This document shows positions 27,569 to 62,177 of a DNA stretch of 63,856 nucleotides, piece after piece. The stretch lies in contig OZ024761.1 of NCBI GenBank assembly GCA_964016885.1, forward strand, positions 28,458,001 to 28,521,856, written 5' to 3'. How positions within the stretch are numbered: position 1 is the first letter of the stretch; every line of letters begins with the position of its first letter. The position numbers were made by a program, and so were the translations under genes. The stretch is from Eledone cirrhosa (taxonomy: Eukaryota). The notes below the pieces were generated by a model, which was not told the DNA's origin, did no database searches, and worked only from the letters and a program-made list of their open reading frames with translations.

Positions 27569-28349
27569 AAGAGGAGTTTGATGAGGTTGCTGTGTTGTTT
27601 ATAGATCAGTGAGATATGTTAAGTTTTAATCTTCTATGTAGACAATTGTGAGAAATTAAATGCATGTGCTTCTTTTATCTAACTCTTTCATTTCCATATT
27701 TCTAATGAAAAATACACTGACCATGTGTTTTAATTAATTTCGAAAATAACCAACCATTTGGAGGAATTTAATAAAATTCAATAAACATTTTTCATTAGTA
27801 GGCTGATATTTAGAACATTACTTAAGAAAAATTGCTAAATTTGCATCAAGATGAAAGGTTTTAATATAAGTGTAAGCATTTTAAAATGAGCAATTTTCTA
27901 TCATAAATCCATACTGGCTTCTGGCAGTTTCGTATCAAAAAGCTTTCAGTTTTTCTATGTGCATAATTATTGAAATTTTTTTTTAATATGCAGAAGTGAC
28001 AAAAGTTAATGGATTGTTAATAAGAGTTACCAAAATTTAAGAGATACCACAGGATGTTACAAGTTAACCTTTTCCTGTTTTAAACCCCAAATAACTATTG
28101 CTAATGAAGTACCACATTTTCTCGATCTTTAACAGAAAGCGTAGTTATGTTAATTGAATCTAAGTTTAAATGGATTGGCACATAGCCTTATGTACGCAAT
28201 GTCATTAGGATATATTTTCAGTTTCACAGCCACTAATTACGTGCTGCATTTCAGTTGACAATTCTCACAAACGAGACAAAAACTAATTGGATATAAGACA
28301 ATTACTGTTTTGGGTTTTGCTAATTGTGGAATTAGAAGAGTTCATTTTG

Positions 28350-57043: not shown

Positions 57044-58504
57044 GGTAAAGGCGATGCACTAGATAGAGGAAACTATAGAGGTATAAAGTTGATGGACCAG
57101 GTCATGAAAGTAACAGAAAGAGTTATAGCACAGCTGATTAGGGACCGGGTGAATATAGACGAGATGCAATTTGGGTTTGTTCCAGGGAAAGGCACCACTG
57201 ATGCGCTCTTCCTTGTGAGGCAATTACAGGAAAAGTACCTAGCTAAAAGTAAGCCACTCTACTTGGCATTTGTCGACCTTGAGAAAGCCTTTGACAGAGT
57301 TCCACGTGCAGTAATCTGGTGGGCTCTTAGAAAACTAGGAGTAGATGAATGGCTTGTGAAAGCGGTACAAGCCATGTATAGGGGAGCAGTCAGCAAAGTT
57401 AGGATTGGCAATGAGTATAGCGAGGAATTTAGCGTACAGGTTGGGGTCCACCAGGGCTCTGTTCTTAGCCCTCTCCTGTTCATCATAGTCCTGCAGGCAA
57501 TAACGGAGGAGTTTAAGACCGGATGCCCATGGGAACTCCTGTATGCTGATGACCTCGCACTCATAGCTGAATCTATGGTAGAACTAGAGAATAAATTCCA
57601 AACCTGGAAGCAGGGACTAGAGAGAAAGGGCCTCAAAGTCAACATGACAAAGACTAAGGTCCTTATAAGTAGACGAGAAAACAGAACCCAGATCCCCTCA
57701 GGGAAATGGCCTTGCTCAGTATGTAGGAAAGGTGTAGGTAGGAACTCCATTCTTTGCCCCAAATGCAAACAATGGGTACACAAGAGATGTAGCGGGATCT
57801 CAGGAAGCTTAATTAAGAATGTAGGATTCACATGCAGCAGCTGTGCTGAAACAGCAAGCAAACAGCCACAGGAAACAAGTACCACCAATCTCTGGGAGGG
57901 CCCTGTAGAAACAGTAGACAGCTTCTGCTACCTAGGTGACCGAATTAGCAACGGAGGTGGGTGCTCAGAAAGTACAATAACTAGGGTAAGAACGGGATGG
58001 AAGAAGTTTAGGGAACTACTACCACTGCTAGCTGCAAAAGGCTTCTCCCTCAGAATGAAAGGCAGACTGTATGATGCGTGTATCCGAACAGCGATGTTGC
58101 ATGGTAGTGAGACCTGGGCGCTGAAGGTGGAAGACTTACGTAGATTAGAGAGAAACGAAGCCTGCATGCTCCGATGGATGTGTAACAGTAATATACGTGA
58201 ACGACAAAGCATAAATGAATTGAGAGAGAGACTGAGCATAAGAGGAATCAAATGCTGCGTGCAGGAGAGGCGGTTACGCTGGTATGGACATGTGATGCGT
58301 ATGAAGGATGACAGCTGCATAAAAAGGTGCAGAGCACTAGAAGTTGATGGAAACCGCGGAGTGGGGAGACCCAAGATGACTTGGGATGAGGTGATAAAAG
58401 CCGACCTTACCCAACTACACCTCTCAAAGTCAATGACACACGACCGTGACTTCTGGCGTCACGCAGTAATACAGGGTACCCGACCTCCCATGGGTACATG
58501 CTGA
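57044..58504 (+). CDS. RTE-clade LINE ORF remnant: reverse transcriptase + PHD-like finger + C-terminus (5'-truncated, no endonuclease domain)
   Basis: Open frame from GKGDALDRGNYRGIKL; QFGF, FVDLEKAFD, GVHQGSVLSPLLF, YADD, C4HC3 finger, [22 protein letters not shown]. Confidence 0.96.
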   Translation, partial: GKGDALDRGNYRGIKLMDQVMKVTERVIAQLIRDRVNIDEMQFGFVPGKGTTDALFLVRQLQEKYLAKSKPLYLAFVDLEKAFDRVPRAVIWWALRKLGVDEWLVKAVQAMYRGAVSKVRIGNEYSEEFSVQVGVHQGSVLSPLLFIIVLQAITEEFKTGCPWELLYADDLALIAESMVELENKFQTWKQGLERKGLKVNMTKTKVLISRRENRTQIPSGKWPCSVCRKGVGRNSILCPKCKQWVHKRCSGISGSLIKNVGFTCSSCAETASKQPQETSTTNLWEGPVETVDSFCYLGDRISNGGGCSESTITRVRTGWKKFRELLPLLAAKGFSLRMKGRLYDACIRTAMLHGSETWALKVEDLRRLERNEACMLRWMCNSNIRERQSINELRERLSIRGIKCCVQERRLRWYGHVMRMKDDSCIKRCRALEVDGNRGVGRPKMTWDEVIKADLTQLHLSKSMTHDRDFWRHAVIQGTRPPMGTC

Positions 58505-58810: not shown

Positions 58811-58882
58811 TATATGTGTGTGAAGTAATTCCGTCGGAAAAGTCCAGGAAAAAAGAGTGCTCTATGTAGGTAACAGAGCTTA

Positions 58883-59108
58883 ATAGTTATGTAATAAACA
58901 ACATAAGGCAATTATTCCATTTACCAGTGGTTTCTTAAAAGCAAAAGATTTTGCTTTCAATCCTCAGAATGAAAAAACCTGGTCTGTTTATTGAATTTGG
59001 ATTTCAATAAACAGACCAGGTTTTTTCATTCTGAGGATTGAAAGCAAAATCTTTTGCTTTTAAGAAACCACTGGTAAATGGAATAATTGCCTTATGTTGT
59101 TTATTACA

Positions 59109-59115
<7 letters not shown>
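58883..59115. repeat. Perfect palindrome (~113-bp arms, ~7-nt spacer) carrying two head-to-head hammerheads
   Basis: Arms are exact reverse complements by eye. Confidence 0.95.
59025..59082 (+). ncRNA. Hammerhead ribozyme (mirror copy at 58916-58973 on minus)
   Basis: TTCATT-CTGAGGA-TTGAAAGCAAAA-TC-TTTTGCTTTTAA-GAAA-CC-ACT-GG-TA-AATGGA; all three stems pair; GUA triplet, predicted cut after 59076; U-A rather than G-C at 10.1-11.1. Confidence 0.78.
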
Positions 59116-59145
<30 letters not shown>

Positions 59146-59651: not shown

Positions 59652-59685
<34 letters not shown>

Positions 59686-60353
59686 TGTTGGCTTCTTGCT
59701 CACATTAATTTCTCTATTTTCATTTATATTTATACTGGGAATTTTTCCTAGAGTGCTTAAAATTATTTGTGACTAATCCCGGTCTTTTAAAAAAAAAAAC
59801 CGCAATAATATTGCTATTTTGCTGAACTCCTTACATTTTATAGAGTTTTTTTGGAATGTTTTTGACTGCTGTTTCTTGTAAATAGACATTCGTCTTATTC
59901 TGACGTCACCAACCATGTCTCTCCATGTGTGTTTATTTTCATAATTCCGCACGAGGTGAACTAGCCTGCTTTTAAATTCCCTTTTTTGCATATTTTGGCA
60001 GTGAGATTTTTGGTTATTGCGTTGAGCTCTACTGAGGAATGACTCCAACCGTGACTAATCCCACTGAAAGGTTTCGTGAAATAGTCTTTTTAAGACTATA
60101 TAGAGCATTTGTAGTTTTTCCAAATTGAAGGATGAGTATTTAAACTTTATTTTATTCTGAGTTAAGACTCTATTGGGTTTTTTCCCTGGATTTCACAAAA
60201 TCTGTGGATAAAATCTCTGTCTTGATTTTTTCTTAATTGAGTTTGAATTATTTTCCCATATCTTACGTTAATTATTTTCCATGTTGACGTTATAGTCACT
60301 TATATATTATGAAATACTGTTGGCTTCTTGCTCACATTAATTTCTCTATTTTC

Positions 60354-60406
<53 letters not shown>

Positions 60407-61536: not shown

Positions 61537-61558
<22 letters not shown>

Positions 61559-61567
<9 letters not shown>

Positions 61568-62093
61568 GAGTTAAACAAGATTCAATGAGTACATCAAAGA
61601 ATGAGTTTTACAGTAGATTGGAAGCACTCTACAGTAAAATATTTTCCTGAGTTATTAATATTAAATTCAAATATTAACAAAATAGATGTTCTTGTGATCA
61701 ATTAAATTTTATTATACATATTTCAGAGGTACTTGAATCAGGTACAACAGTACGTCCTCATCAGATAAAATAAAATGATACATGACATACCCTGACATGT
61801 TAGATGGTTAAGATTTAATCAAGGTAGTGATTAAATCTTAGCCATCTAACATGTCAGGGTATGTCATGTATCATTTTATTTTATCTGATGAGGACGTACT
61901 GTTGTACCTGATTCAAGTACCTCTGAAATATGTATAATAAAATTTAATTGATCACAAGAACATCTATTTTGTTAATATTTGAATTTAATATTAATAACTC
62001 TGGAAAATATTTTTTTACTGTAGAGTGCTTCCAATCTACTGTAAAACTCATTCTTTGATGTATTCATTGAATCTTGTTTAACTCTTTAATATA
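61559..62093. repeat. Near-perfect 535-bp palindrome (~263-bp arms, 6-nt spacer AGGTAG at 61822-61827) with a hammerhead in each arm
   Basis: Right arm 61879-61942: TTTTAT-CTGATGA-GGACGTAC...GTACCTCT-GAAATATGTATA-ATAAAA; mirror at 61707-61770; only a handful of arm mismatches; flanked by TA-rich sequence. Confidence 0.93.
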
Positions 62094-62177
62094 GACATAT
62101 ATATATATATACTAGTAGAACACTGGAGGGTTATATCCATAGTAGTAGAGCACTCAGTCCATGGGACGAGTTTGGTT

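What the first reader, a model, noticed from the sequence alone, without database searches (positions are those of the whole stretch)
61559..62093. 535-bp ORF-less palindrome family with covarying hammerhead stems
Seen: three relatives within 6 kb (55895-56045, 56700-57028, 61559-62093). The base of stem II reads GGA..TCC at 55941, AAA..TTT at 56921 and GGA..TCT at 61879, with the GTAC/GTAC helix kept and the loop varying, which looks like compensatory change. Palindrome centres differ between copies, so the fold-backs probably arose independently at insertion. Inference: structure was selected during element replication. A repeat annotator would probably call these MITEs and miss the ribozyme.
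Basis: partly seen in the sequence, partly recalled or inferred. Interest (0 to 1): 0.72.

Follow-up and report, generated by a model that had tools for sequence, protein, structure and literature searches.

The report
Head-to-head stubs of Penelope-like retrotransposon
This mirror-image stretch is two short back-to-back copies of the front end of a very abundant Penelope-type jumping gene, each carrying a predicted self-cutting hammerhead RNA motif whose stem changes in matched pairs between subfamilies; it is a known kind of insertion, likely made when both cut ends of the target DNA primed copying of the element's RNA up to its start.

Summary
Observation confirmed. 61559-62093 is a 96% palindrome with a type I hammerhead motif on each arm. 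The two neighbours belong to sister subfamilies. It is not a MITE and not a separate non-autonomous family. Longer copies run into an RT plus C-terminal GIY-YIG ORF with the motifs of Hydra-clade Penelope-like elements (PLEs), and the arm is the 5' leader of that ORF.
A tight hammerhead pattern matches 46,595 arms (control 0). Stem II covaries: 95 of 98 cells pair in recurrent variants, while 52 of 75 rare changes break pairs. Centres vary (46-5,021 bp between cores), and 35 of 40 two-arm copies have a ~100-nt tail on one arm only.
About a third of copies stop at one base, 31 nt after a TATA box. This is likely the RNA start, and the 535-bp copy turns there. No footprint of ribozyme cleavage and no RNA data were found.
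Opposite-strand hammerhead pairs, inverted truncated copies and tails are published for PLEs, and this scan reported the same architecture on other DNA of this genome. Verdict: new member of a known kind.

The parts
61559..61828 (-). Left arm of the main palindrome: element leader from +1 (ACTACC, inferred RNA start) to about +269, with the tail
61828..62093 (+). Right arm: element leader +8 to about +269, with the tail; shares 1 nt with the left arm at the junction
61878..61943 (+). Type I hammerhead motif (stem I 7 bp, CTGATGA, stem II with a C.C mismatch, GAAA, short self-complementary stem III); predicted cut after 61936
61706..61771 (-). Same hammerhead motif on the left arm
61984..61996 (+). 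AT-rich inner 3' end site, where tail-less arms of other copies join (TA)n
61990..62093 (+). About 100-nt tail; in tandem copies it continues about 55 nt further to the ORF's ATG
61537..61562 (.). (TA)n target tract, left flank
62088..62111 (.). (TA)n-like target tract, right flank
55895..55991 (-). Sister-subfamily copy: inverted tail-less arm with a hammerhead (GGA..TCC), about +59 to +175
55992..56048 (+). Same copy: direct arm holding only the last ~60 nt of the tail
56700..56902 (-). Sister-subfamily palindrome, left arm with tail; hammerhead broken by a deletion
56903..57028 (+). Same palindrome, right tail-less arm; hammerhead core at 56927 (AAA..TTT)

Best explanation
The palindrome is two head-to-head, 5'-truncated copies of the leader of a Penelope-like retrotransposon with Hydra-clade protein motifs, likely made when the element's nuclease cut a (TA)n tract and both DNA ends primed reverse transcription that ran to the RNA's predicted start. 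Shown: the arm sequence lies both 1.5-2.5 kb after the ORF's stop and just before the ORF's ATG (a pLTR); there are two discrete 3' ends about 100 nt apart, both AT-rich; copies abut (TA)n; about a third stop at one base 31 nt after a TATA box; stem II covaries between subfamilies. Inferred: transcription starts at ACTACC from a TATA/initiator promoter that lies upstream, inside the pLTR. RT primes at one of two internal AT-rich sites, usually a different one for each DNA end. RT reads through an uncut hammerhead, and the two cDNAs join at their far ends through short microhomology. Stubs that start at +1 have lost the TATA box and would be dead on arrival, so the ribozyme fold was selected in the coding masters. 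The hammerhead would need a second copy to pair stem III, as proposed for PLE ribozymes.
For: 4 of 4 extended close relatives run into a GIY-YIG ORF. 11 of 30 N-terminal loci carry the hammerhead and tail in sense just upstream of the ORF start. L177 shows this for the subfamily of the 535-bp copy. Motifs RWR, SDKT, GLYRDD, CxCx5C, no CCHH and C-terminal CxxC/CxH are present, as described for Hydra (PMC8557442). 240 of 265 arms abut (TA)n; 35 of 40 head-to-head pairs have the tail on exactly one arm; gaps are 46-5,021 bp. The base before ACTACC is not the element's C in 606 of 1,882 exact 25-mer matches, and 29 of the first 30 such loci are truncated exactly there. A TATA word lies at -29 to -31 in 24 of 30 continuing loci, and the AAA..TTT subfamily shows the same layout. 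Covariation: 6 of 8 stem II pairs change on both sides, 0 of 500 shuffles reach the score; 95 of 98 cells pair in 14 recurrent variants, against 52 of 75 rare changes that break pairs.
Against: The RNA start, cap and priming sites are read from DNA copies only. The 535-bp copy has tails on both arms, a minority form (3 of 40). Its arms share a stem II change seen in no other fetched locus, which also fits fold-back of one cDNA or arm-to-arm conversion. A 7-bp inverted repeat straddles +1 in this subfamily. Which arm is longer is not consistent with tail state. No fully intact ORF of this subfamily was seen; the longest open stretches (636-750 aa) are truncated or have altered motifs. A G before +1 is common (39 of the first 100 listed, my count), but about 5 of 13 G loci inspected can be templated. 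The AAA..TTT subfamily was tied to a Hydra-type nuclease in only 2 of 77 loci. No tree with published Hydra proteins was built.
Confidence: 0.8

Rival explanations
1. Same element, but the palindrome forms by snap-back: one cDNA folds on a short inverted repeat near +1 and copies itself, and the second arm ends by annealing to (TA)n or by nuclease resolution.
For: The 535-bp copy has equal arms and a shared private change. TTAATCA/TGATTAA flanks the centre, and L001, L023 and L028 have the predicted loop.
Against: Junctions such as L017 and L021 stop exactly at +1 and do not use the hairpin. Single-arm copies also stop at +1. The hot spot recurs in subfamilies with a different sequence there. 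Many copies have one arm kilobases longer than the other (L174, L186, L194).
Confidence: 0.12
2. A self-propagating non-autonomous family (retrozyme- or SINE-like) that is transcribed from the stubs and mobilised in trans.
For: Stubs far outnumber ORF-bearing copies (few of the 40 loci L178-L217 show a linked ORF). PLE-derived retrozymes exist (PMC7229834; bioRxiv 10.64898/2026.07.22.740005).
Against: There are no short head-to-tail monomers; the one tandem array seen has a ~3.8-kb unit with an ORF remnant. Junctions differ from copy to copy. Stubs lack the TATA box. Read-through from lone pLTRs that keep the TATA box is not excluded.
Confidence: 0.06
3. MITE or fold-back DNA transposon; the covariation is quasi-palindrome correction at the DNA level.
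For: ORF-less, short, inverted arms, in TA tracts.
Against: Ends are asymmetric and centres variable. There is a direct link to an RT ORF. The C.C/C.A mismatch in stem II is never corrected (14 of 14 recurrent variants). Stem I varies through G.U pairs on the sense strand.
Confidence: 0.02

Closest known systems
Hydra clade of C-terminal EN+ Penelope-like elements (Craig et al. 2021, PMC8557442; read: sections 3 and 11, passages, supplement search hits)
   Same: RT with C-terminal GIY-YIG, DKT, RW[K/R], CxCx5C linker, no CCHH, C-terminal CxxC and CxH, 3' hammerhead, (TA)n target, inverted 5'-truncated copy, tail on one end. The supplement lists Hydra-1_Obim from an octopus and an inverted copy on Penelope-13_HM.
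   Different: A different family: its hammerhead differs from that listed for Hydra-1_Obim. The tail is ~100 nt, not 30-40. The 3' UTR is 1.5-2.5 kb, so the unit exceeds the usual <3 kb. Tens of thousands of arms.
PLE hammerheads (Cervera and De la Pena 2014, PMC4209133; read: abstract, Results)
   Same: Type I motif in pLTRs, long helix II, small palindromic helix III predicted to need a dimer, families with sequence variation, and pairs 100-700 bp apart on opposite strands ascribed to truncated PLEs.
   Different: Counts there are thousands per genome (about 9,000 in Xenopus); here 46,595 for one pattern. Stem I is longer (7-8 bp), and stem II has a fixed internal mismatch at pair 4.
Poseidon PAc of Anolis (Frangieh et al. 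2024, PMC11167929; read: parts 1-2 of 4)
   Same: Two internal RT start sites that define the tail, AT-rich cleavage on both strands, predicted protein dimer, uncut RNA as the main template.
   Different: Different clade. There the ORF starts inside the hammerhead and the tail lies in the ORF; here both lie in a ~325-nt untranslated leader.
Penelope of Drosophila virilis promoter (Schostak et al. 2008, PMC2377424; read: passages)
   Same: Transcription starts in the pLTR upstream of the hammerhead region; inverted terminal repeats of variable size.
   Different: That promoter is internal and TATA-less; here a TATA word lies 31 nt upstream of the inferred start (sequence only, untested).
Metazoan non-LTR retrozymes (PMC7229834, passages; bioRxiv 10.64898/2026.07.22.740005, part 1 of 5 and passages)
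   Same: Short, ORF-less, type I hammerhead, PLE-related.
   Different: Retrozymes are head-to-tail 150-450-bp repeats with circular RNA; these are head-to-head truncations of a coding element.

Membership tests
EN+ Penelope-like element | Single ORF with RT and C-terminal GIY-YIG nuclease linked to the repeat | tested here: met
   identified by motifs and by 662 homologues of the same layout; Pfam gave no RT or GIY-YIG hit for 3 proteins
EN+ Penelope-like element | pLTR from partial tandems, and inverted 5'-truncated copies | tested here: met
   11 of 30 N-terminal loci with an upstream pLTR; 40 head-to-head pairs
EN+ Penelope-like element | Optional 3' tail on one end | tested here: met
   35 of 40 pairs; length ~100 nt rather than 30-40
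Hydra clade | CxCx5C linker, no CCHH, CxxC and CxH around the conserved E and N | tested here: met
   against the description
Hydra clade | DKT and RWK motifs, no N-terminal GxKF/Y | tested here: met
   SDKT present; RWR instead of RWK in most copies; no GxKF/Y by eye
Hydra clade | Insertion into (TA)n | tested here: met
   240 of 265 arms
Hydra clade | Generally shorter than 3 kb (descriptive) | tested here: not met
   ORF ~2.2 kb plus 1.5-2.5 kb to the hammerhead
Hydra clade | Groups with published Hydra RTs in a tree | not tested
   Only by-eye comparison with supplement passages
Type I hammerhead ribozyme | CUGANGA / GAAA / NUH core with three helices, covarying | tested here: met
   the core was part of the search pattern, so its invariance in the alignment is partly circular; it is shared by subfamilies whose proteins are 55-71% identical
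Type I hammerhead ribozyme | Self-cleavage | not testable with these tools
   Indirect test inconclusive: 2-3 junctions at the cut among 14 hits, 1 among 5 at the next base
MITE / fold-back DNA transposon | Fixed symmetric termini and centre | tested here: not met
MITE / fold-back DNA transposon | Superfamily-specific TSD | tested here: inconclusive
   Both flanks are (TA)n, so no TSD can be read; no empty site was available
Non-LTR retrozyme | Short head-to-tail monomers, one hammerhead each | tested here: not met
Non-LTR retrozyme | Monomeric circular RNA | not testable with these tools
   No RNA holder listed

The most novel reading that the evidence does not exclude
Hydra-clade PLEs use an LTR-like upstream TATA promoter that only a tandem pLTR can restore, and they insert by priming both target ends on two RNAs at two fixed sites. 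The hammerhead is kept under selection mainly as a stem III pairing device that holds the two templates together, not as a cutter. The tens of thousands of stubs would then be a genome-scale map of RNA start, priming sites and junctions.
Probability: 0.22. Interest if true: 0.68.

Novelty: new member of a known kind. Interest (0 to 1): 0.36.

Why it matters
How PLEs build tandem and inverted ends, and what their hammerheads do, is stated as open in PMC8557442 and PMC11167929. This family offers tens of thousands of natural insertion products with a sharp 5' stop, two fixed 3' ends and a covarying ribozyme. It therefore names exact templates and sites for an in vitro test. It also shows that a large class of short palindromes in this genome should be annotated as PLE stubs, not MITEs. 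The architecture itself is published and was already noted by this scan elsewhere in the genome.

Tried and rejected
Rfam: no hammerhead among the 150 listed of 406 whole-window matches or the 3 local ones. Pfam: no relevant family for 3 proteins. RNA runs: no RNA holder listed. Laying three contig sets of one sample showed the family present, but no listed piece had 31 letters on both sides of the centre, so this junction is not independently confirmed. Nearby PLE ORFs in L121-L124 belong to other elements and were dropped. A pattern for the AAA..TTT tail running into an ORF found 0. The cleavage-footprint test gave no enrichment; junctions preceded by A are invisible to it. The arm-extent measure was confounded by inverted arms, and that is unreliable for long gaps, so no rule 'tail arm is shorter' is claimed. 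The Fisher test printed used hand-entered family counts and is not used. The script stopped with an error after printing its tables. My first reading of the centre hot spot (hairpin snap-back) was demoted after earlier notes suggested the RNA start and searches supported it. Literature searches: PLE + TATA box + pLTR + transcription start, 0 papers; Penelope + twin priming + inverted, 2 papers that look unrelated from the listing; Penelope + palindrom + hairpin + tail + Adineta, 0; PLE + hammerhead + cephalopod or octopus, only PMC8557442. The library lacks many subscription papers. An octopus repeat annotation (PMC13282606, passages) has no hit for hammerhead, Hydra or palindrom.

Full report
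Observation. The stretch 61559-62093 matches its own reverse complement at 96%. The arms differ by three substitutions and a 3-nt indel, and no ATG frame is longer than 35 codons. A motif scan of the window finds a type I hammerhead on each arm (cores at 61885 + and 61764 -) and one at 55985 (-). The copy at 56927 has the core but a mismatch in stem I. The three copies are 71-86% alike. The copy at 55895-56048 is one inverted ribozyme arm plus 60 nt of tail, and the left arm at 56700-56902 has lost part of its ribozyme. Rfam lists no hammerhead, and single-sequence folding does not return the fold; weak folding is expected for a motif with a 2-3 bp stem III.

Abundance. In the 3.0-Gb genome G000 a tight pattern matches 7,588 times and a wider one 46,595 times; reversed controls give 0. 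These are arms, not insertions. The 40 scored nearest relatives of the right arm are 95-98% identical apart from itself.

What it belongs to. Four of four close relatives extended upstream run into a GIY-YIG ORF. One of them, L125, is itself a 4.2-kb palindrome with its centre inside that ORF. Copies found through the protein carry the same hammerhead 1.5-2.5 kb after the stop. In 11 of 30 loci found with an N-terminal query, the hammerhead and tail lie in sense just before the ORF, whose ATG follows the tail by about 55 nt. L177 shows this for the subfamily of the 535-bp copy. The arm is therefore a pLTR and the leader of the mRNA. The protein has RWR, SDKT, GLYRDD, a CxCx5C linker, no CCHH, and C-terminal CxxC and CxH. 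These match the description of the Hydra clade in PMC8557442 (section 11) and, by eye, Hydra-1_Obim in its supplement, whose hammerhead is different. Pfam names no domain; 662 unnamed or uncharacterised homologues were found, the best 120 at 31-39% identity. The GGA..TCC subfamily is linked to the same ORF type (L172, L310). The AAA..TTT subfamily is linked in 2 of 77 loci examined. No fully intact ORF of this subfamily was seen.

Covariation. On 22 hand-picked representatives, 94% of cells pair, 6 of 8 stem II pairs change on both sides, and 0 of 500 shuffles reach the score; slid controls pair 38-52%. That control ignores relatedness. Among 374 distinct contexts, 14 stem II variants recur at least three times (174 contexts), and 95 of their 98 cells pair. 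On a tree of flanks, pairs 1, 2, 3, 5 and 6 change on both strands, roughly six events. Rare variants break pairing in 52 of 75 changes (37 of 55). The mismatch at pair 4 is never repaired, and stem I varies through G.U on the sense strand, which argues against DNA-level palindrome correction. The core was part of the pattern, so its invariance is partly circular; it is shared by subfamilies with proteins 55-71% identical.

Ends and centres. Of 265 arms, 240 abut (TA)n. The 3' ends fall in two classes, about 50 and about 148 nt after the core. Of 40 head-to-head pairs, 35 have the tail on one arm, 3 on both (one looks misclassified) and 2 on neither; gaps between cores run from 46 to 5,021 bp. 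Many loci were chosen by likeness to the window copies, so this is not a random sample. Both end sites are AT-rich in the element itself, which fits priming by a (TA)n end. PMC11167929 (parts 1-2) showed two internal RT starts defining the tail, and cleavage of both strands, for a Poseidon element.

The hot spot. Gaps near 120 bp recur. For a 25-mer starting at ACTACC, 1,276 matches are preceded by the element's C and 606 by another base. Of the first 30 non-C loci 29 are truncated right there, while 25 of 30 C loci were flagged as continuing and the other 5 appear to. A TATA word stands at -29 to -31 in 24 of those 30, and the AAA..TTT subfamily has the same layout around ACTGCC. That spacing is typical of a Pol II start (established knowledge), so ACTACC is likely +1. 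G is the preceding base in 39 of the first 100 listed, which hints at a copied cap, but about 5 of 13 inspected can be templated. In the 535-bp copy the left arm reaches +1 and the right arm starts at +8 with one shared base. I first read this junction as hairpin snap-back. Earlier notes of this scan suggested the RNA start, and the counts above are my test of that. Snap-back remains possible for this copy, since both arms have tails and share a change found in no other fetched locus. D. virilis Penelope has an internal TATA-less promoter (PMC2377424, passages), so an upstream TATA box would differ; stubs would then be untranscribed.

Does the ribozyme cut? Copies that begin at the predicted cut are rare: 2-3 junctions among 14 hits, against 1 among 5 one base further. 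This is no enrichment, and junctions after an A are hidden. Most templates were therefore uncut, as in PMC11167929. Stem III can pair with a second copy (8 pairs, -4.2 kcal/mol), the dimer form proposed in PMC4209133 (Results). That paper also reports opposite-strand pairs 100-700 bp apart from truncated PLEs.

Verdict. What goes beyond the papers I read is the ~100-nt tail, the long 3' UTR, the copy number and the TATA-linked stop. The last was already noted by this scan on other DNA of this genome. Supplements of the bioRxiv preprint were not seen. Interest 0.36.

Noticed in passing
window 58830-59125: A second, unrelated hammerhead palindrome (arms 58883-59115, 98%; cores at 59031 + and 58967 -, 12-bp stem II) with an extra ~55 nt on the left arm, next to (TA)n; a related piece lies at 14068-14177. 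Probably a stub of another PLE family.
   Followed up: partly
window 59670-60370: A ~700-bp insert in (TA)n with a 67-bp direct repeat at both ends and a type I hammerhead with a full 7-bp stem III at 60026-60110; could be a retrozyme-like monomer or a PLE tail duplication.
   Followed up: no
window 6961 (-) and 28063-28221 (-): A weak hammerhead-like match, and a short remnant with weak similarity (E 5e-5) to the Hydra-type nuclease.
   Followed up: no
window 57043-58480: A 5'-truncated RTE-like LINE RT frame (486 codons) ending in (GAT)n, directly after the TA tract of the 56700-57028 copy; the family label is recalled, not from a call.
   Followed up: no
L169-L170 (G000:C2:391565000-391576000): Three head-to-tail ~3.8-kb units of this element, each with a nuclease remnant and (TA)n after the tail; looks like a local tandem duplication.
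   Followed up: partly
L126 and L128, about 1.6-2.6 kb upstream of the hammerhead: A ~1-kb repeat with GTCTGTCTG-type tandem units inserted in the 3' UTR, in opposite orientations in the two copies.
   Followed up: no
L318: A copy in which the sequence from the 5' strand of stem I to the predicted cut site is missing, i.e. the ribozyme core is cleanly deleted; single case.
   Followed up: no
L121-L124, L127, L176: ORFs of several other PLE lineages lie within a few kb of these stubs, consistent with shared (TA)n targets.
   Followed up: no
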